Source: a virus (taxonomy: Duplodnaviria; Heunggongvirae; Uroviricota; Caudoviricetes). Taken from it: a stretch of 64,000 bases of DNA. Under the pieces are notes generated by a model. That model was given only the letters and a program-made list of their open reading frames with translations. It had not been told where the DNA came from and searched no databases. Each line of letters begins with the position of its first letter. Positions within the stretch are counted from its first letter, which is position 1. The stretch lies in IMG/VR virus record IMGVR_UViG_3300016457_000036, positions 7,253 through 71,252 of that record; one strand, 5' to 3'. This document shows positions 11,553-42,970 of the stretch, piece after piece. Position numbers and translations under genes: made by a program.

Positions 11553-13319
11553 ATGGCAGAACAATTCAACTTTAAAGAACTAGATAAGCACCTCAGAGCC
11601 GAGTGGCTTGCTAAACGTCCTGACTTCGTACAAGCATTTATTGATAACATTCAAAACATCGCTGATACGCATATGACTGAAGCTCTAGCAGTTGACAGAT
11701 GGGCTGAGTACATCGATATTGAGCGTCAAGCACCTCATATTTATTACTATCTTGCTTCTTGTCAAGATAGTATGCCTATTCAAAATATGATCGGCGGCAT
11801 GGCTACACTTATCAATGATCATAATGAACGTGACCTACCTACAGTATGGAACACGCACCAAATCGCATCAGAGATTATCTTCGCATTGAATGGTATCTTC
11901 ACTACTGTACAGTTGACATACAATGGAAAGTATGTTGTACGTAGCCTACTACGCGATCCTGAGCTCTCTGAGACACTCATGTATCCATTACCATTAGCTG
12001 AGCCTGCTTATGCCTCACGTGCTCTTGGAGCGTATGCTTGGAATATCACTAATGATGATGCTCTGAATGTATTGAACGCTATTCCTATGACAATCATGCA
12101 GTTTCCTGAGCAGATGCCATTCATCGGTGCTAACCCATCGGACGCAGACAAGGAACTAATGGTCAAGTATGAAGTACGTAAGGCGCTACAGCCTAGCTTT
12201 AGTGGTAAACGTATCTTCTATAATTGGCACTCAGACTACAGAGGTCGTATGTCACCTGGTGCATATCACTTCAACCCGCATGGAAATGAGTATGAGAAAT
12301 CTATCATTGCCTTCGCTGAACCTGAGAAAGTATCTTGGGCAGGTGTGATGGAATACCGTAAAGCCTTAGCTCGCTGTGCAGGTCTTGGAAAAGATACTGA
12401 CATGGAGAAACTAAAGTGGTACGCACAAAACTCACTCACCAACTTCGCTGATGTAATATGGAAAGAGCCACATACTGCTGTCTCTATCCTAACTGCATTT
12501 GAGCAGATCAAGAACACAGGACGTACTAATATCCCTATTGAACTTGACTCTACTAATTCACAGTTGCAAATGGTAGCGGTACTAACCGGTGACATGCAGA
12601 CAGCACTTACTTGTAACGTCGTACCTGATGGTGATAAGATCGCTGATGCCTATGGTATCTTGGCTGAGATTATGACTAAGATCTCCGGCAAACTCTATAC
12701 TCGTCATGACGTTAAATACGCAATGATGGTAGCAGGTTATGGCGGTGGAAAAGATGTAGTAATCGCAGAGTTCGTGGACGCTATGGACAATGACTACGAT
12801 GTTGGTGAAACATACGAGACATTCCTAGCTGCTATGGAATATGTGAGCCCTGCTTCCGGTCTACTTAAAGACACATTCGACAATCTATGGAAGGACGATT
12901 GGACTGAGGTTACTTGGACTCTACCTGATGGATTTGTAGCTTGCTATAAGCCTGTTCAGACTATGACTCTAACTCTACGTCCATTCGGTATCGACATCGA
13001 GTGTCTTGCTACAGTTAATCAAGCTATCGACTTCTCTACTGCACTCTACGTGAATGTAATTCACTCAGTTGATGCATACGTAGCTCGACAGAAAGTTATC
13101 CGTGCTAAGGGTAAATCATGGTCTATTCATGACGGCTTTCCAATGAGAGCAAACTTCGTATCTACAGGTGTTCAGAACTACAAGGACATCTTAGGTGAAA
13201 TCGCAGACTCGCGCCTATTAGAGGACATCTTAACTGAGATCTCCGGATCATACGTACCTACATTTGGAAAACAATTCGGCAACGATGCAATTCAATTAGG
13301 CAACTACGCTATCTCTTAA
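11553..13319 (+). CDS. large hypothetical protein (588 aa)
   Basis: AAAGGAACC Shine-Dalgarno sequence; long uninterrupted ORF; no motif recognised. Confidence 0.6.
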   Translation: MAEQFNFKELDKHLRAEWLAKRPDFVQAFIDNIQNIADTHMTEALAVDRWAEYIDIERQAPHIYYYLASCQDSMPIQNMIGGMATLINDHNERDLPTVWNTHQIASEIIFALNGIFTTVQLTYNGKYVVRSLLRDPELSETLMYPLPLAEPAYASRALGAYAWNITNDDALNVLNAIPMTIMQFPEQMPFIGANPSDADKELMVKYEVRKALQPSFSGKRIFYNWHSDYRGRMSPGAYHFNPHGNEYEKSIIAFAEPEKVSWAGVMEYRKALARCAGLGKDTDMEKLKWYAQNSLTNFADVIWKEPHTAVSILTAFEQIKNTGRTNIPIELDSTNSQLQMVAVLTGDMQTALTCNVVPDGDKIADAYGILAEIMTKISGKLYTRHDVKYAMMVAGYGGGKDVVIAEFVDAMDNDYDVGETYETFLAAMEYVSPASGLLKDTFDNLWKDDWTEVTWTLPDGFVACYKPVQTMTLTLRPFGIDIECLATVNQAIDFSTALYVNVIHSVDAYVARQKVIRAKGKSWSIHDGFPMRANFVSTGVQNYKDILGEIADSRLLEDILTEISGSYVPTFGKQFGNDAIQLGNYAIS

Positions 13320-36106: not shown

Positions 36107-36190
36107 GTAAAGTAAAAGTTGTTCGGATACAGCACCGAGACTGTAAATCTCGTCTTTAGGGGAGTGGTTCGAGTCCACTACTTTACACCA
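36107..36190 (+). tRNA. tRNA-Tyr (anticodon GTA), long D/variable region
   Basis: acceptor GTAAAGT/ACTTTAC, anticodon stem CGAGA/TCTCG loop CTGTAAA, T-arm AGTGG-TTCGAGT-CCACT, CCA encoded; D-arm fold ambiguous. Confidence 0.6.
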
Positions 36191-36725: not shown

Positions 36726-37487
36726 ATGTCAAAACCTGTATTACACGAATTACTTGCCGTAGAGCAAGGACTATCTGAAACAGCTAATCGTATCACTAAA
36801 GAGACGATCAAAACACTATCTACTAAGCAATCTATCTTTGCCGGTATGAACAAAGCACACACTATCTTCGCAGAAGATCAGCAACACCTGGTTCAAGCTA
36901 CAGAGTACAAAGAAGTACAATCTACTGCAGATGAGCAGATCAACTTTCTAAACACAGAGATCGCTCGTTATTGGGACGTTACTCTACAAAAAGAAGAGGC
37001 AAACCAACGTGCTAATGCAGACATCATTATTGATGGTACTACTCTCGCTACAAATGTACCTTCTATCGTTTTACTAGGTCTTGAAAAGAAACTTACTTCT
37101 CTTCTAGCAGTTTATAACGCATTACCTACACTTGATGCTGCTACAGCTTGGGAAAGTGATCCATCTGCATCTAAAGATGGTATCTTTCGTACTAAGTATC
37201 CTGAAGAGCGTCAGCACAACGTAACTGAGCTAAAGTATATCATTGCTGCACCTGCAACTGAGCGTCATCCTGCACAAGTCAAAGAGCAAAGTATTACTGA
37301 TGTTATCGGTAAATATGTGATCACTACTTTCTCAGGTGCTATCACTTCATACGACAAAGCAGCACGTCTTGAGAAGCTTACTAAACTGATCCGTGCTGTG
37401 AAAAAAGCTCGTCAACGTGCCAACAACACAGAAGTAAACACAGATCTTACTATCGGTGCTACTATGCTAAAATACATTAACGATTAA
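36726..37487 (+). CDS. hypothetical protein (253 aa) embedded in stable-RNA island
   Basis: ATAAGGAACTACCCCATG; long clean ORF. Confidence 0.5.
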   Translation: MSKPVLHELLAVEQGLSETANRITKETIKTLSTKQSIFAGMNKAHTIFAEDQQHLVQATEYKEVQSTADEQINFLNTEIARYWDVTLQKEEANQRANADIIIDGTTLATNVPSIVLLGLEKKLTSLLAVYNALPTLDAATAWESDPSASKDGIFRTKYPEERQHNVTELKYIIAAPATERHPAQVKEQSITDVIGKYVITTFSGAITSYDKAARLEKLTKLIRAVKKARQRANNTEVNTDLTIGATMLKYIND

Positions 37488-37940: not shown

Positions 37941-38010
37941 GAAGGTTCGAGTCCTTCCCCGCCTACCATTACTTTACAGGCGGGTAGTCGAATTGGTTAT
38001 AGACGTTTGT
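37941..38010 (+). ncRNA. permuted tRNA-like element P2: T-arm + CCCGCCT-A-CCA, spacer, 5' half AGGCGGG-TA-GTCG...
   Basis: GAAGG-TTCGAGT-CCTTC T-arm; 5' acceptor AGGCGGG perfectly complementary 13 nt downstream followed by D-arm-like GTCGAATTGGTTATAGAC. Confidence 0.4.
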
Positions 38011-38052: not shown

Positions 38053-38297
38053 TCAAAACATAGCTCTAGGGGTATATACGTATTGTAGTACTTAGTAGTG
38101 TGGATCACGGACTACAATCCCGATCTCGTATTTTGTCTCGTCCCGCAAGGATGTACAGACAGAGCGACAAAACGCTGCGGTGTACCCTGAGAGGTGTGTT
38201 TTAAAGCCACCACAAGATTCTGTAGTAATAGTCTCTAATGCTGTAAGTATGGCACTACTTGTAATAGTGTCAGGATCACTTACTGTATTACGTCCGA

Positions 38298-38419
38298 CAT
38301 GACGTTAAACATGACATTACTTTGTGATTAAAGTAGTTACCGAGAACGTAGACTAATAATCTACTCAGTACCGGACCGGCATGACGTTAAACATGACATT
38401 ACTTTGTGATTAAAGTAGT
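38298..38419 (+). repeat. two perfect 40-bp direct repeats (CATGACGTTAAACATGACATTACTTTGTGATTAAAGTAGT) 42 bp apart
   Basis: copies at 38298-38337 and 38380-38419; each contains ACTTT-GTGATT-AAAGT inverted repeat. Confidence 0.7.
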
Positions 38420-38811: not shown

Positions 38812-39262
38812 TTTAGCACAGCCTAGTGCATAGAGCCTACATGGTTAAAGGCTTGAGTATATGTAAGAAATACCTATCTTAACATAACTCTTAATCTATG
38901 TACTATGGTGTGCTTTGAGGCATACACAACGAGTTCTTCTTTGATGTAACTCAGCATAAAGTTCTCAGCTCCCACCGGCCCAGTTTAATCAGCAGCGATG
39001 GCCTATAACTCAGAAATGATTAGCGAGACTCAGGTTCCTCTTTTAGGCTCCTTCCTTGTCTCGCGATTAAGCATACCTTTCATTACATTATGTGTACTGA
39101 CAGGTGTGCTTTTTTGGTAATTATGTACACATGGTGGAGATTTCTAGTAGTGGCGGAATTCAATAAAGACGCTAAATAACAGTTCCTCCGTTCAGAGTGC
39201 TGTATGAGCTAACTTGAAAATTAGCAATTCATAGGTGGAAGTCCTGTGACTACTTTATATAT

Positions 39263-39610
39263 GGGCGCAACATGGCTTCGACAGGAAATTGGTCCCACCC
39301 CGAATGATACAAGGTATGATACTACCTCAACAGATCATTAACTTAAATGTAAACAACATGAATTTTAATCCTACTGCAGAGCTTGCTGCTGCGTAGTGTG
39401 GACCGGGACAGACACATAACCAACTTGTCCCACACTTTAAGTCTTTGCCTTGTTGCAGAGCCTAGCACCGTAAGTTCACGCTAGTAACCAATTCTTACAT
39501 CCTTGTTTTACAGTTTTACGCATATTGACTGTGATAAATTGCACGTATCGTGAAGTTCGGTTAAAAAGATGATTTTTTGGACTCGGGTTCGATACCCGAT
39601 GCGTCCACCA
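39263..39610 (+). ncRNA. ssrA: tmRNA (ssrA-like transfer-messenger RNA), tag reading frame ...NFNPTAELAAA-stop
   Basis: 5' GGGCGCA-ACATGG-CTTCGAC-AGG and 3' GGAC-TCGGG-TTCGATA-CCCGA-TGCGTCC-A-CCA match tmRNA consensus; internal ORF gca gag ctt gct gct gcg tag ends 39396. Confidence 0.75.
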
Positions 39611-39762
39611 TACGCTATCCCCTTGATACTATTATGTAGTATGAATGGGGTTGCGAAGCTGCAGATGCAACCACTAAAATCTTATACGCAGCATAGTACT
39701 TCTTCATTTCTATTAAAACTATGAAGAACGCTCCCGGGTATGGTCGGCTAGGGAGAGTAGTG

Positions 39763-39785
39763 TTGACCTTTGTTTATGATATAAT
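39763..39785 (+). promoter_or_regulatory. promoter candidate: TTGACC ... extended -10 TGATATAAT
   Basis: perfect TGnTATAAT at 39777-39785; -35-like TTGACC at 39763 (short spacer). Confidence 0.4.
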
Positions 39786-40098: not shown

Positions 40099-42294
40099 AT
40101 GAAAAACTTAGCACTACAACGCCTAATCTATGGCATGACAAACACTATCGTAATCGAGTCTACCGGTCCTAAAGAAGTCGTAACTGAAATCGAGGCTGTA
40201 CGTTCTAGCATGGCTATCGAGGGCTTTATCTTCCGTCCGGGTTTCGCTAACACTACTGAACTAACTGACTATACAGAAGCTGATTGGGCTGCTATGTATG
40301 CACAATATTCTTTAACATATGGATGGAGTACACTTTACACAGCCCGTACAGGTAATAATCCTGTTACTGTACTTGATGCATACTTTACTGATCTTGGCAA
40401 TATCTTTTCTCCGCTTGAAGTAGCGCCTAAAGCGTATTATGTGGCTGAGCCTGTTTTCTATGAAAAAGTATTGACTGACATCGCTGAGTCAAAAATTGTA
40501 TTACGTACACATCAGATCGAGATCTTAAATCTTATGCCTATCGAAATACTTGCTAAAATTTATGAGAATGTCGTATTCACCATCATAGAAACTCGTATTC
40601 TGTTTCTAAAACGTCTCATTACTGAAGGTAAAGAAATCGCTGCATTTACTACACCTGAAGAGATTGTAAAATTCGTCATAGCTGTCTTTCCTAAGAACAC
40701 AGAGCCATACACAGGACAAGTCACTAACGACATATTAAAAGCAATCGAAGTAAAAATTCCTACATCTATGCGTAAAGTTATTGTTCGCTCTATTCAAAAG
40801 ATGAGCTACTTTAAAGCTATCAGAGGCATGAAGAAAAACAAAAACTTTTGGAAACGTCTATTTAAGCAACTTGCATGGCAATCCGAAGAAAAAATGATCG
40901 CTACTGCTCGCTTTCAAAACTACCTTGATATTAAAGGTACTGTCTTCAATGAGACTATCATCACACCTCGCTCAGACATCGAACAGTATCGTCGTGAAGG
41001 TAACTTAGAAACTGCTTTTATTGTTGAGATGAAAAACACAGGCGGGATGTTACGAAATCTTATGTCATACCTACGTTATCCGATCGGATCTACTTATGCT
41101 AAAAAAGTAAGCATGGCACCTGATGCAAAAGAACACGGTATTGCTATGTACTTTAATAAAAAAGTACAGGAAGAAGTACGTGCTACTGTCGTTCATTCTG
41201 ACATTACCAATGTCTTAGCATCTGACGAATTTATGAAGTGTCTTACTCAGGCTAACTCTAAGCTACTATGGCAAGTACTCACACTTCTACAGGACAAGAA
41301 AAACACAGTCCCTAAATCTGTTCGTGTTGTAAACGACACTAAGATCAAATACTCAAAAGCTTTACCGGGTATCGATCCTAAAATGACTGAGCTTGCTAAA
41401 AAAGCCATTAAAAAGGCTATCAAAAAAGTGAAACGTGCTGAAAATGCATCTCTTGGTAAAGTTTACATAGACAAAACACTTAAAAACTACGCTATGCAGT
41501 TCTCAGGTCGCTCAGAAACGTCAATCTCACTATCAGGTGAATACTTGTCTCCGGGAAGTAAAATTGACCTTACAGACCTTCTGAAGGGTGAAGATAAAAT
41601 CTTACGTATGGGTATTGCATGGACAGGTGCTTCATGTGATGTTGACCATGCTCTAAATATCTTCGGTATGCGTTCTATCTATTACGGTAATCCTACCTTA
41701 GCAGATACAGAAGGTCGTGTAGTTATCTCATCTTCAGGTGATATTACATCATGTAGTCCTGGTCTATTCAGTACAGAGATTATCGATATTGATGTAGATC
41801 AACTTGCTACGTCTAACGTAGAGAAGATCTTTAATTCTGCTCATATGTTTGCAGGTCCTACTTTCGATAAAATTGAATGTTATTGGTTCATGAATATCAT
41901 CGATAAAAAAGATCGTATCCTTGAAAAACGTAAAGTTGCAATCGCACTTGATGCAATGCAATATGCTATTAAGCTTCAAGAACCTACTCGTGCACAGGTA
42001 GGTTTCTCTGTCGATCTGAAAAAGAAAGAACTTGAAGTTTTAAATCTTCCATCAAAACAATCGCAGTATAATAATGCTGCTACTTGTAAAGAAGATTTTG
42101 AGAAGCTGTTAGCTGAACGTCCTAAGCAAAAATCATTGTATAAAGCAATGAAAACTGTTATCGCTAAAGATCAGCTGACTGATAATATTTTAGAAGCTGA
42201 CTTGATTATTTCTGCTGAACCTGATCAGCCTGCAGGCATTACTGTCTTGCATCCGGGCAGAGATGCAGTAGCACTACAAGAAATTATCTTTTAG
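40099..42294 (+). CDS. large hypothetical protein (731 aa)
   Basis: AAAAGGAAATCCCCATG; long clean ORF; no motif recognised. Confidence 0.6.
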   Translation: MKNLALQRLIYGMTNTIVIESTGPKEVVTEIEAVRSSMAIEGFIFRPGFANTTELTDYTEADWAAMYAQYSLTYGWSTLYTARTGNNPVTVLDAYFTDLGNIFSPLEVAPKAYYVAEPVFYEKVLTDIAESKIVLRTHQIEILNLMPIEILAKIYENVVFTIIETRILFLKRLITEGKEIAAFTTPEEIVKFVIAVFPKNTEPYTGQVTNDILKAIEVKIPTSMRKVIVRSIQKMSYFKAIRGMKKNKNFWKRLFKQLAWQSEEKMIATARFQNYLDIKGTVFNETIITPRSDIEQYRREGNLETAFIVEMKNTGGMLRNLMSYLRYPIGSTYAKKVSMAPDAKEHGIAMYFNKKVQEEVRATVVHSDITNVLASDEFMKCLTQANSKLLWQVLTLLQDKKNTVPKSVRVVNDTKIKYSKALPGIDPKMTELAKKAIKKAIKKVKRAENASLGKVYIDKTLKNYAMQFSGRSETSISLSGEYLSPGSKIDLTDLLKGEDKILRMGIAWTGASCDVDHALNIFGMRSIYYGNPTLADTEGRVVISSSGDITSCSPGLFSTEIIDIDVDQLATSNVEKIFNSAHMFAGPTFDKIECYWFMNIIDKKDRILEKRKVAIALDAMQYAIKLQEPTRAQVGFSVDLKKKELEVLNLPSKQSQYNNAATCKEDFEKLLAERPKQKSLYKAMKTVIAKDQLTDNILEADLIISAEPDQPAGITVLHPGRDAVALQEIIF

Positions 42295-42491: not shown

Positions 42492-42536
42492 ATTAGTAAG
42501 TATATTGTATTAGTTACTTCAAACACGCACGATGTC

Positions 42537-42613
42537 GCAGGTTCGAGTCCTGCTCGCTCCACCATTTAATTATGAGGAGCGATAGCTCAGTTGGTAGAGC
42601 GCATGCCTTAACT
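42537..42613 (+). ncRNA. permuted tRNA-like element P3: 3' half (GCAGG-TTCGAGT-CCTGC + TCGCTCC-A-CCA) then 5' half GGAGCGA-TA-GCTCAGTTGGTAGAGC-G-CATGC-CTTAACT
   Basis: 5' acceptor perfectly complementary to upstream 3' strand; spacer ACCATTTAATTATGA; no T-arm downstream of 5' half. Confidence 0.4.
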
Positions 42614-42970
42614 ACTATTACAACTCACTTACTAGTTTATTCTATACAGCATCCGAGTACTGCAACTCCTCGGATACTGTCAGAGTAAACTGTAAATCAT
42701 TTCCGTTTAAGGGCCCTATCCACTCTGTAATAACGGCAGATATAAAACTGTAAATTGATCCAAAGGTAACTCTTAACAGTAAGACCTATATCGCACATCG
42801 CAATAGGCAAGTTTAGAGTGTAATTCCTATCTTACATTCCCTGTATATTCGTAACACCTTTATACCCTCTACGTGTCTATCCTACTCGTAGAGGGATCAT
42901 TAAATATGGCTGAAATGCCACCAAAATAATCTGAACCTGCAGAAATACAGGCGAAGATGTTTGAAACAAC

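What the first reader, a model, noticed from the sequence alone, without database searches (positions are those of the whole stretch)
39263..39610. Phage-encoded tmRNA (ssrA-like) with tag ...NFNPTAELAAA
The 5' end (GGGCGCA-ACATGG-CTTCGAC-AGG) and the 3' end (GGAC-TCGGG-TTCGATA-CCCGA-TGCGTCC-ACCA) match the acceptor/T-arm tRNA-like domain of tmRNA, including the conserved UUCGAC and GGAC signatures. These are separated by about 300 nt. The middle contains a short reading frame ending gct gct gcg tag (39361-39396) that encodes ...N-F-N-P-T-A-E-L-A-A-A, a typical ssrA degradation tag ending. The gene sits in the tRNA island, where phage stable RNAs usually cluster. tmRNAs are rare in phages.
Basis: partly seen in the sequence, partly recalled or inferred. 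Interest (0 to 1): 0.7.

Follow-up and report, generated by a model that had tools for sequence, protein, structure and literature searches.

The report
Phage-encoded tmRNA gene, confirmed
A roughly 119-kb uncultured marine phage related to N4 carries a complete ribosome-rescue RNA (tmRNA) among its tRNA genes; the gene is real and under selection, but tmRNAs are already known from about 2% of phage genomes, so this is a new example and not a new kind of thing.

Summary
ARAGORN and Rfam RF00023 both call a one-piece tmRNA at 39263-39610 (+), with tag (A)VNNMNFNPTAELAAA. The acceptor stem has the G3:U70 alanine identity pair and an encoded ACCA end. The T-arm, D-loop analogue, P2 helix, PK1 and tag frame are all present.

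A diverged relative, metagenomic contig L005 (neighbouring protein 60% identical), has the same gene at 82% identity. All 77 proposed base pairs form in both copies. Seven pairs changed on both sides and none is broken. The tag frame is the best conserved part (94%): apart from a GUA/GCA difference at the resume codon, its only changes are two synonymous ones. Similarity stops right after ACCA.

The gene is patchy. It is present in the window phage, L005 and (as a 3' fragment) L011. It is absent from four other relatives and from the searched part of Alteromonas phage AD45-P1. No SmpB or integrase is encoded in the window.

It most likely uses host AlaRS, SmpB and EF-Tu to free stalled ribosomes during infection. 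Two features are unusual: the Val resume codon (which has a Helicobacter precedent) and the ...LAAA tag end. Verdict: a new member of a known kind, of modest interest.

The parts
39263..39610 (+). Complete one-piece tmRNA (ssrA-like) gene, 348 nt, with encoded CCA
   Evidence: ARAGORN. Rfam RF00023 at 56.2 bits against GA 47, full model. Identical in four other metagenomic copies of the same phage. 82% identical to the homologue at L005:569-921.
39263..39269 (+). Acceptor stem (P1), 5' strand GGGCGCA. It pairs with 39600-39606 and includes the G3:U70 wobble pair.
   Evidence: 7 of 7 pairs form in both phages. Two pairs changed on both sides (G5:C to C5:G, A7:U to G7:C). G3:U is invariant.
39270..39281 (+). 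D-loop analogue ACAUGGCUUCGA, matching the tmRNA consensus GGxUUCGAC
   Evidence: cmscan alignment with posterior probability about 1. Conserved in L005 apart from one base.
39282..39310 (+). P2 helix, 5' strands. P2a is 39282-39291, P2b 39300-39304 and P2c 39305-39310. They pair with 39570-39579, 39556-39560 and 39545-39550.
   Evidence: 21 pairs, all formable in both phages. Two one-sided changes give G-U pairs.
39312..39338 (+). Pseudoknot PK1: stem 1 AGGU/ACCU and stem 2 AUGAU/AUCAU
   Evidence: One compensatory double change in each stem relative to L005 (AGGA/UCCU and AUGGU/ACUAU).
39349..39396 (+). Tag reading frame: resume codon GUA, 15 codons VNNMNFNPTAELAAA, stop UAG. It is preceded by UUAAAU, which puts U at -5 and A at -4.
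   Evidence: ARAGORN. 94% identical to L005. The only differences are the resume codon GUA/GCA and two synonymous Asn third-position changes.
39371..39396 (+). Helix 5 (CUAC-U-GCAG...CUGC-UGC-GUAG), which holds the stop codon in its 3' strand
   Evidence: 8 pairs, invariant between the two phages, so covariation neither supports nor refutes it.
39397..39431 (+). Pseudoknot PK2: UGUG/CACA and GGGACA/UGUCCC
   Evidence: One compensatory double change in each stem. These helices were chosen from the same two sequences, so the evidence is lenient.
39462..39498 (+). Pseudoknot PK3: CUAGC/GCUAG and GUAAG/CUUAC
   Evidence: Stem 2 has one compensatory change (A:U to G:C). Stem 1 is invariant.
39508..39534 (+). 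PK4 stem 1 hairpin (UUACAGU/ACUGUGA). The second stem is weak in this copy.
   Evidence: Stem 1 is conserved with one wobble-preserving change. In L005 stem 2 is a 6-bp helix, AGGCUU/AAGCCU. In the window only weak alternatives exist.
39545..39579 (+). P2 helix, 3' strands (P2c 39545-39550, P2b 39556-39560, P2a 39570-39579)
39583..39599 (+). T-arm: stem UCGGG/CCCGA with the 7-nt loop UUCGAUA
   Evidence: cmscan posterior probability about 1. Five invariant pairs. The last loop base differs in L005, as expected for an unpaired position.
39600..39610 (+). Acceptor stem 3' strand UGCGUCC, then discriminator A and CCA
   Evidence: Similarity to L005 and L011 ends directly after ACCA.
39229..39262 (+). 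Hairpin followed by CTACTTTATATAT, directly upstream of the mature 5' end. This may be a transcription or processing signal; its role is inferred only.
   Evidence: A hairpin followed by CTACTTTwTATAT immediately precedes G1 in both the window and L005.

Best explanation
This is a genuine, selectively maintained one-piece tmRNA gene carried as an accessory gene in the tRNA island of a roughly 119-kb uncultured marine phage related to N4. The steps below are inferred from the sequence and from what is known of bacterial trans-translation. (1) The RNA is transcribed with the co-oriented tRNA cluster and trimmed to a 348-nt molecule that ends in the encoded CCA. (2) Host alanyl-tRNA synthetase charges it through the G3:U70 pair and the A discriminator. 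(3) Host SmpB and EF-Tu deliver it to ribosomes stalled on broken or stop-less mRNAs. No SmpB is encoded in the window. (4) The nascent chain is transferred to the alanine, and translation resumes at GUA. This appends (A)VNNMNFNPTAELAAA and stops at UAG, which releases the ribosome. (5) The hydrophobic Ala-rich end marks the product for host proteases. The likely benefit to the phage is keeping ribosomes available for its own genes when infection raises the load of truncated mRNAs or lowers the supply of host tmRNA. That load could come from nucleases of the phage or of host defence systems. Shown here: the gene's identity, its structure, and purifying selection on it. Inferred: expression, charging, dependence on SmpB, tagging, and the benefit.
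For: Two independent detectors agree on the exact ends.

All the tRNA-like domain determinants are present: a 7-bp acceptor stem with G3:U70, an ACCA end, a 5-bp T-stem with loop UUCGAUA, and a GGCUUCGAC D-loop analogue.

The homologue in L005 is 82% identical, while the flanking coding DNA is 66-77% identical and the adjacent protein 60%.

All 77 pairs in 14 helices form in both sequences. Seven pairs changed on both sides and four on one side while keeping a wobble pair. Slid-partner controls give 0-1 such pairs and only 36-48% pairing.

Conservation follows the expected tmRNA pattern: tag frame 94%, tRNA-like domain plus P2 90%, pseudoknots 71-75%. Inside the frame, the only changes besides the resume codon are synonymous.

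Similarity ends immediately after ACCA in three phages.

The gene is identical in four independent metagenomic assemblies of the same phage.

No ORF longer than 51 aa overlaps it.

No SmpB family hit appears among the 66 window ORFs of at least 100 aa.

There is precedent. Phage tmRNAs occur in 2.3% of phage genomes (PMC9004378). The tmRNA of mycobacteriophage Wildcat is its most highly expressed lytic gene (PMC7474061).
Against: There are no expression or biochemical data. Only two independent full-length sequences exist, so the covariation rests on a single comparison. The PK2 and PK3 helices were picked from those same two sequences, which biases the count upward.

The Rfam score is only 9 bits above the gathering threshold, and the model's alignment of the PK2-PK4 region has low posterior probability. 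The second stem of PK4 is weak in the window's copy.

The tag ends in ...LAAA. All 19 bacterial tags in Table 1 of PMC12493166 end in x-A-A with x = L, V, I, F or K, so recognition by host proteases is uncertain.

Close relatives do without the gene (L006, L012, L007, L009), so it is dispensable. The host is unknown, so its own tmRNA and SmpB could not be compared. About 55 kb of the phage genome lies outside the window and was not checked for SmpB.
Confidence: 0.85

Rival explanations
1. Decoy or altered-fate tmRNA. The phage RNA would compete with host tmRNA for SmpB and stalled ribosomes. It would either damp host trans-translation or attach a tag (...ELAAA) that host ClpXP and its adaptors recognise poorly. 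Ribosomes would then be freed without sending the products to proteolysis, or with a different fate for them.
For: The tag's C-terminus AAA differs from the x-A-A endings (x = L, V, I, F, K) of all 19 bacterial tags in Table 1 of PMC12493166. No tmRNA with a tag of the form [A/V]NNxxFxxxxxLAAA-stop was found in 185,579 bacterial species genomes. There is precedent for SmpB titration: mycobacteriophage DS6A carries little more than the tRNA-like domain, and a similar molecule strongly inhibits tmRNA (PMC4131195).
Against: The complete messenger part is conserved, synonymous-only changes point to a translated frame, and PK1 covaries. None of this would be needed for simple SmpB titration. The tag still ends in two alanines after a leucine-containing hydrophobic stretch, which may well remain a degron. 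Nothing tested here separates a weak degron from a normal one.
Confidence: 0.1
2. A recently captured, functionally neutral passenger or decaying gene. On this view the tmRNA was picked up from a bacterium or another phage and is not used.
For: The distribution among relatives is patchy. The Rfam score is low for a tmRNA (56 bits). PK4 stem 2 is weak in the window.
Against: Two lineages have diverged to 60% identity in the adjacent protein but keep the RNA at 82%. Every one of the 18 substitutions in paired columns preserves pairing, and the tag frame is intact. A neutral sequence would have lost pairing and frame at that divergence. No near-identical donor was found in phage, E. coli, IMG/VR or JGI contig collections.
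Confidence: 0.03
3. An attachment-site remnant. Temperate phages that integrate into the host ssrA gene carry a copy of part of it.
For: ssrA is a common integration site, and ssrA fragments occur in prophages (discussed in PMC9004378).
Against: The gene is complete, with the 5' acceptor strand, PK1, tag frame and 3' end, and is not just a 3' fragment. No integrase or recombinase family was found among the 66 window ORFs. The genome type is N4-related, with its own RNA polymerases.
Confidence: 0.01
4. An intron-containing or split tRNA-Ala, not a tmRNA.
For: The two ends form a tRNA-like acceptor stem and T-arm about 300 nt apart.
Against: There is no D-stem and no anticodon arm. The 5' segment matches the tmRNA-specific GGxUUCGAC motif. 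Rfam's tRNA model gives no hit here even at E <= 1, while the tmRNA model covers the whole length. The interior holds a conserved tag frame and covarying pseudoknots.
Confidence: 0.01

Closest known systems
Bacterial one-piece tmRNA (SsrA, Rfam RF00023), for example E. coli SsrA
   Same: The order of parts is the same: acceptor 5' strand, D-loop analogue, P2, PK1, tag frame with the stop in helix 5, PK2-PK4, P2 3' strand, T-arm, acceptor 3' strand, CCA. It has the G3:U70 pair. The U at -5 and A at -4 before the resume codon match E. coli U85/A86 (E. coli positions are from my own knowledge).
   Different: It is encoded by a phage. It is very divergent in sequence: 56 bits, and no blastn match to any E. 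coli genome. The resume codon is GUA (Val), where GCA is usual. The tag has 15 residues and ends in LAAA, not ALAA. PK4 is possibly reduced.
Helicobacter pylori SsrA (tag VNNTDYAPAYAKAA; PMC12493166 Table 1)
   Same: The tag starts with Val-Asn-Asn. It has an aromatic residue at position 6 and Pro at position 8, is of similar length (14 vs 15), and ends in Ala-Ala. This shows that a Val resume codon is compatible with function.
   Different: The H. pylori tag ends in AKAA and the gene is chromosomal. I could not compare the RNA sequences, so a relationship to Campylobacterota tmRNAs is only a lead. The L005 homologue has the ordinary Ala (GCA) resume codon.
tmRNAs of mycobacteriophages (Bxz1, Catera, Wildcat and others) and Bacillus phage G (PMC4131195; PMC7474061)
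   Same: These are complete one-piece tmRNAs in phages. In Wildcat the tmRNA is very highly expressed during lytic growth.
   Different: There is no detectable DNA similarity: blastn against 50,697 phage records found nothing. The hosts and phage types differ, since these are not N4-related.
Two-piece (permuted) tmRNAs of marine phages such as Melnitz and pelagimyophages (PMC9004378)
   Same: They are marine phages with an accessory tmRNA that is patchy among relatives. The same hypotheses have been offered: maintaining the hijacked translation machinery, or selective tagging.
   Different: Those are circularly permuted, and in Melnitz the tmRNA is linked to a glutamine riboswitch. This one is colinear: the permuted model RF04321 scores only 26.7 bits against GA 47, and no riboswitch was found. 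According to that paper, only 2.5% of one-piece phage tmRNAs were marine.
Translation modules of huge phages, with tmRNA plus SmpB and release factors (PMC7162821)
   Same: tmRNA accompanies phage tRNAs as part of a translation-support set.
   Different: The genome here is about 119 kb, not over 200 kb. No SmpB or other translation factor was found in the 64-kb window.

Membership tests
tmRNA (one-piece SsrA, Rfam RF00023) | Covariance-model score at or above the curated gathering score, over the whole model | tested here: met
   56.2 bits against 47, model positions 1-374 of 374, E = 2e-19. L005 scores 67.8 bits.
tmRNA (one-piece SsrA, Rfam RF00023) | tRNA-Ala-like acceptor stem with a G3:U70 wobble pair, an A discriminator and a CCA end | tested here: met
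   GGGCGCA/UGCGUCC followed by ACCA. G3:U is invariant, and two other pairs changed by compensation in L005.
tmRNA (one-piece SsrA, Rfam RF00023) | T-arm (5-bp stem, 7-nt UUCGAnn loop) and a D-loop analogue GGxUUCGAC, with no D-stem or anticodon arm | tested here: met
   UCGGG-UUCGAUA-CCCGA and AUGGCUUCGAC, aligned with posterior probability about 1. No tRNA-model hit at this position.
tmRNA (one-piece SsrA, Rfam RF00023) | Long P2 helix that joins the tRNA-like domain to the messenger and pseudoknot ring | tested here: met
   21 pairs in three segments, all formable in both phages. Two changes, both to G-U.
tmRNA (one-piece SsrA, Rfam RF00023) | Pseudoknot PK1 just upstream of the resume codon | tested here: met
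   Stems of 4 and 5 bp at 39312-39338, each with one compensatory double change.
tmRNA (one-piece SsrA, Rfam RF00023) | Short internal reading frame without a start codon that encodes a tag with a hydrophobic, Ala-rich C-terminus and is closed by a stop codon in or near helix 5 | tested here: met
   VNNMNFNPTAELAAA* at 39349-39396. This is the most conserved segment (94%), and its substitutions are synonymous except at the resume codon. The ...LAAA ending is atypical but is hydrophobic and Ala-rich.
tmRNA (one-piece SsrA, Rfam RF00023) | Pseudoknots PK2-PK4 downstream of the tag frame (variable, and replaceable in some lineages) | tested here: inconclusive
   PK2 and PK3 form as H-type pseudoknots with 3 compensatory changes. 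However, they were derived from the same two sequences. PK4 stem 1 is conserved. PK4 stem 2 is strong in L005 and weak in the window.
tmRNA (one-piece SsrA, Rfam RF00023) | Alanylation by AlaRS, SmpB binding, and trans-translation activity | not testable with these tools
   This needs biochemistry or infected-cell data.
Self-contained phage trans-translation module (tmRNA plus SmpB, as in some huge phages) | A phage-encoded SmpB | tested here: not met
   No SmpB family appears among the 66 ORFs of at least 100 aa in the window. The Pfam family list was complete at 23 families. About 55 kb of the genome outside the window was not examined.
Two-piece (permuted) tmRNA (RF04321, RF01849) | Circularly permuted gene order, with the acceptor 3' piece before the coding piece, and a score at or above the gathering score | tested here: not met
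   RF04321 gives only partial matches of 26.7 and 17.4 bits against 47. The gene is colinear.
Intron-containing tRNA | An intact D-arm and anticodon arm flanking an insertion | tested here: not met
   No D-stem or anticodon arm. ARAGORN classifies it as a tmRNA. There is no Rfam tRNA hit at E <= 1.
ssrA-derived phage attachment site | A partial (3') ssrA copy next to an integrase | tested here: not met
   The gene is full length. No integrase family was found in the window.

The most novel reading that the evidence does not exclude
The tmRNA may be a phage-tuned variant and not a simple spare copy. Its tag ((A)VNNMNFNPTAELAAA) matched no tmRNA in 185,579 bacterial species genomes at the pattern tested, and it ends in AAA, not the usual x-A-A with a bulky x. 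It might therefore give rescued polypeptides a different fate from the host tag, for example slow ClpXP degradation or escape from adaptors. Alternatively, the gene might act with the neighbouring tRNAs as a counter-defence, clearing ribosomes stalled by host tRNA- or mRNA-cleaving immunity. It would also be the first tmRNA that I could find described in the N4-related podophage lineage.
Probability: 0.15. Interest if true: 0.55.

Novelty: new member of a known kind. Interest (0 to 1): 0.3.

Why it matters
Phage-encoded tmRNAs are catalogued, but their function is almost unstudied. This one extends them to an uncultured lineage of roughly 119-kb phages related to N4, found in deep-sea metagenomes. 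There the gene sits in a variable tRNA island and is gained or lost between close relatives. The pair of diverged copies gives a clean, testable structure and tag. The natural GUA/GCA resume-codon difference and the unusual ...LAAA end could be used to ask two questions: whether phage tags are tuned differently from host tags, and whether ribosome rescue limits phage yield. As it stands it is a solid annotation and a modest addition to a known class, not a discovery of a new mechanism.

Tried and rejected
(1) DNA similarity searches with the tmRNA found nothing. I tried blastn against 50,697 phage records and against all complete E. coli genomes.

(2) Exact and degenerate pattern scans found no further copies. 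IMG/VR gave none. One JGI metagenome contig scan gave none. The other returned two unrelated permuted alphaproteobacterial tmRNAs (tag ANSYEYALAA) that merely share a 21-mer of the 3' tRNA-like domain.

(3) A scan of 185,579 bacterial species genomes for the tag pattern [A/V]NNxxFx5LAAA-stop gave six matches, none of them a tmRNA. No donor or host lineage was identified. This tested only that exact length and pattern.

(4) A protein-seeded search of IMG/VR with the neighbouring 731-aa protein found nothing. The large protein database did find relatives.

(5) The neighbours were tested as possible trans-translation partners. These were the 731-aa protein, the DUF7873 protein, a DHH phosphoesterase and two small ORFs. 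There was no informative PDB, Pfam, PHROG or NCBIfam hit.

(6) Pseudoknot-free MFE folding of the whole RNA does not recover the acceptor stem, as expected for a tmRNA. It gives only z = -2.2 against shuffles.

(7) The promoter and terminator consensus scan was at background level (9 found, 8.5 expected).

(8) Host identification from sample accessions anchored only L005, to seawater above a South China Sea cold seep. The window's own samples were not found in the paper library.

(9) The aligner's 'mean column identity' values (88-91%) overstate the similarity. The true pairwise identity is 82%.

Full report
**1. The observation.** ARAGORN reports a tmRNA with exactly these ends and the tag VNNMNFNPTAELAAA*, coding part 39349-39396. 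The Rfam model RF00023 matches the same 348 bases over its whole length. It scores 56.2 bits against a gathering score of 47, with E = 2e-19 for the 64-kb window. The permuted-tmRNA model gives only partial, sub-threshold matches (26.7 and 17.4 bits). The gene lies among six tRNA genes on the same strand: Gln, Tyr, Asn, Ala and Met upstream, and Leu downstream. No ORF longer than 51 aa overlaps it.

**2. What genome this is.** The window is phage DNA. It encodes an N4-type single-subunit RNA polymerase (11553-13319), a family A DNA polymerase, a primase, Dda-like and UvrD-like helicases, a PD-(D/E)XK nuclease and an N4 gp49 homologue. The primase's best matches among 50,697 deposited phages are seven records of Alteromonas podophages (R22Y, PT11-V19, AD45-P1 to P4) at only 36-38% amino-acid identity. 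These phages are annotated with N4-like genes. The same phage occurs as contigs of 118.9-119.1 kb in JGI and ENA metagenomes and as a shorter (6.2-kb) contig in a Logan assembly. The four stretches fetched from these are about 99.95% identical to the window, and their tmRNAs are identical to it. It is therefore an uncultured phage of about 119 kb, related to N4.

**3. Relatives and distribution of the gene.** The 731-aa protein encoded just downstream (40099-42294, no known domain) has 19 homologues in the large protein collection. I fetched their contigs.
- L005 is 89.6 kb, with the neighbour protein 60% identical. It comes from seawater above a South China Sea cold seep. It has a tmRNA at L005:569-921 with tag ANNMNFNPTAELAAA** and scores 67.8 bits.
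- L011 (58% identical) starts inside a tmRNA 3' end that is identical to L005's over its 28 bases.
- L006 (59%), L012 (49%), L007/L008 (45%) and L009/L010 (29%) have tRNAs at the equivalent place. They have no tmRNA even at E <= 0.5.
- Alteromonas phage AD45-P1 has only tRNA-Met in the 49 kb searched.

The tmRNA is thus an accessory gene that is gained or lost among close relatives.

**4. Evidence for selection and structure.** The window and L005 tmRNAs are 82% identical (291 of 355 columns). The flanking coding DNA is 66-77% identical, and similarity stops directly after ACCA. Conservation follows the classic tmRNA pattern:

| Region | Identity |
|---|---|
| Tag frame | 94% |
| tRNA-like domain plus P2 | 90% |
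| PK1 | 71% |
| PK2-PK4 | 75% |

Within the frame there are three differences: the resume codon (GUA in the window, GCA in L005) and two synonymous third-position changes in Asn codons.

I wrote out a full structure: P1, P2a-c, PK1, helix 5, PK2, PK3, PK4 stem 1 and the T-arm, 77 pairs in 14 helices. I counted it on the two-sequence alignment.
- Every pair forms in both sequences.
- Seven pairs changed on both sides: two in P1, one in each stem of PK1, one in each stem of PK2, and one in PK3 stem 2.
- Four pairs changed on one side while keeping a wobble pair.
- All 18 substitutions that fall in paired columns preserve pairing.
- With partners slid by 1-3 columns, pairing drops to 36-48% and compensatory pairs to 0-1.

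Two caveats apply. There are only two sequences. The PK2 and PK3 helices were found by searching those same sequences for covarying helices, so those counts are lenient. P1, P2, PK1 and the T-arm come from the canonical model and carry four of the seven compensatory pairs. PK4's second stem is a good 6-bp helix in L005 but weak in the window.

**5. Functional determinants visible in the sequence.**
- The acceptor stem GGGCGCA/UGCGUCC has the G3:U70 wobble pair, invariant in both phages. It is followed by an A discriminator and an encoded CCA. From established knowledge, G3:U70 is the main identity element for alanyl-tRNA synthetase.
- The T-arm (UCGGG-UUCGAUA-CCCGA) and the D-loop analogue (GGCUUCGAC) match the tmRNA consensus with high posterior probability.
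- The resume codon is preceded by UUAAAU, which puts U at -5 and A at -4. This matches E. coli U85/A86, which set the frame (E. coli positions from my own knowledge).
- A Val resume codon is unusual but has a natural precedent. The H. pylori tag is VNNTDYAPAYAKAA (PMC12493166, Table 1). That tag also shares the N-N start, an aromatic residue at position 6 and Pro at position 8.
- The ...LAAA end differs from the x-A-A endings (x = L, V, I, F, K) of all 19 bacterial tags in that table.

**6. Partners and context.** Pfam scans of the 66 window ORFs of at least 100 aa found no SmpB and no integrase. The family list was complete at 23 families. The uncharacterised neighbours gave no link to translation. 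A 38-nt block at 39103-39140 is conserved upstream in both phages. So is a hairpin followed by CTACTTTwTATAT immediately before the mature 5' end. Their role in transcription or processing is unknown. The sigma-70 consensus scan was at background level.

**7. Mechanism.** The best-supported reading is ordinary trans-translation driven by a phage-supplied RNA and host proteins. The RNA is charged with alanine and delivered by SmpB and EF-Tu to stalled ribosomes. Translation resumes at GUA and appends (A)VNNMNFNPTAELAAA. The ribosome is released at UAG, and the product is marked for proteolysis. What is shown is gene identity, structure and purifying selection. Expression, charging, SmpB dependence, tagging and the benefit to the phage are inferred.

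The benefit is probably a supply of free ribosomes during infection. This fits the gene's position in a translation-support island of tRNAs. It also fits earlier suggestions for other phage tmRNAs (PMC9004378; PMC7162821) and the very high expression of the Wildcat tmRNA (PMC7474061).

The main rival is a decoy or altered-fate role. It is suggested by the atypical tag end and by the SmpB-titrating precedent of tRNA-like-domain-only molecules (PMC4131195). The conserved, apparently translated frame argues against pure titration. Neutral passenger, attachment-site remnant and intron-containing tRNA are each contradicted by tested features.

**8. Comparison with what is known, and novelty.** The RNA meets every sequence-testable defining feature of one-piece tmRNA, so it is a member of that family. 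Phage-encoded tmRNAs are documented in several groups:
- eight mycobacteriophages and Bacillus phage G (PMC4131195);
- 402 of 18,146 phage genomes, with 133 unique structures (PMC9004378);
- huge phages, sometimes together with SmpB (PMC7162821).

This one has no detectable DNA similarity to any deposited phage or to E. coli ssrA. No tmRNA with its tag pattern turned up in 185,579 bacterial species genomes. In the paper library, N4-like phage papers mention tmRNA only in methods sections or as absent. It is therefore a new, divergent member of a known kind in a lineage where I found none reported. It is not a new mechanism.

**9. Verdict.** Novelty: new member of a known kind. Interest 0.3. 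This is a sound annotation with a clean comparative structure and a slightly unusual tag, useful as a test case for what phage tmRNAs do, but unsurprising to a specialist.

Noticed in passing
window 42510-42618 (+); also L006:12788-12853, L009:8020-8118, L012:230-294: There is a sub-threshold but recurrent match to Rfam YrlA (Y RNA-like, RF02553). It scores 36.6 bits against GA 69 (E = 3e-5) and covers the full model in the window, directly after tRNA-Leu. Similar matches lie next to tRNAs in three related phages. The window region is conserved in L005. It could be a tRNA-like or Y-RNA-like module shared by this phage group.
   Followed up: partly
window 38294-38337 and 38376-38419: A 44-bp direct repeat (one mismatch between the copies) lies in the gene-poor stretch between the DUF7873 gene and tRNA-Met.
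   Followed up: no
window 37941-37957 (+): GAAGGTTCGAGTCCTTC looks like a tRNA T-arm, but neither ARAGORN nor Rfam calls a tRNA there. It may be a degenerate or unusual tRNA.
   Followed up: no
window 39103-39140 and 39229-39262; L005:503-541 and 545-568: A 38-nt block (GGTGTGCTTTTTTGGTAATTATG...ATGGTGGAGA) is about 90% conserved upstream of the tmRNA in both phages. A hairpin followed by CTACTTTwTATAT abuts the mature 5' end in both. The window has about 90 extra bases between the two elements. These are candidate transcription or processing signals.
   Followed up: partly
window 39611-39763: About 150 nt immediately downstream of the tmRNA are absent from L005. They fold into several hairpins, for example CCCCUUGAUACUA...UAGUAUGAAUGGGG (z = -2.4 against shuffles). 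None is followed by a U-run.
   Followed up: no
window, among the 56 ORFs listed (individual ORFs not localised): Pfam hits include a Type I Thoeris inhibitor Tad6 homologue (E = 4e-25), a GGDEF diguanylate cyclase domain (8.6e-8), a SLOG/YAcAr protein, DUF932, and T5orf172 and HNH nucleases. Relatives L007 and L009 carry anti-Pycsar Apyc1 homologues. This phage group therefore carries several counter-defence genes.
   Followed up: no
window 36726-37487 (+): A DUF7873 protein (E = 6e-66) sits inside the tRNA island between tRNA-Ala and tRNA-Met. It has no PHROG or NCBIfam match. Its function is unknown.
   Followed up: partly
L019:281-599 (-) and L020:416-734 (+): Two JGI metagenome contigs carry permuted alphaproteobacterial tmRNAs (tag ANSYEYALAA). 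They share an exact 21-mer (UUUUUUGGACUCGGGUUCGAU) with the phage tmRNA's P2a and T-arm region. This is probably convergence in a constrained region.
   Followed up: partly
window 36107-36190 (+): ARAGORN calls tRNA-Tyr here. The Rfam tRNA model does not report it, either at the gathering score or at E <= 1.
   Followed up: no
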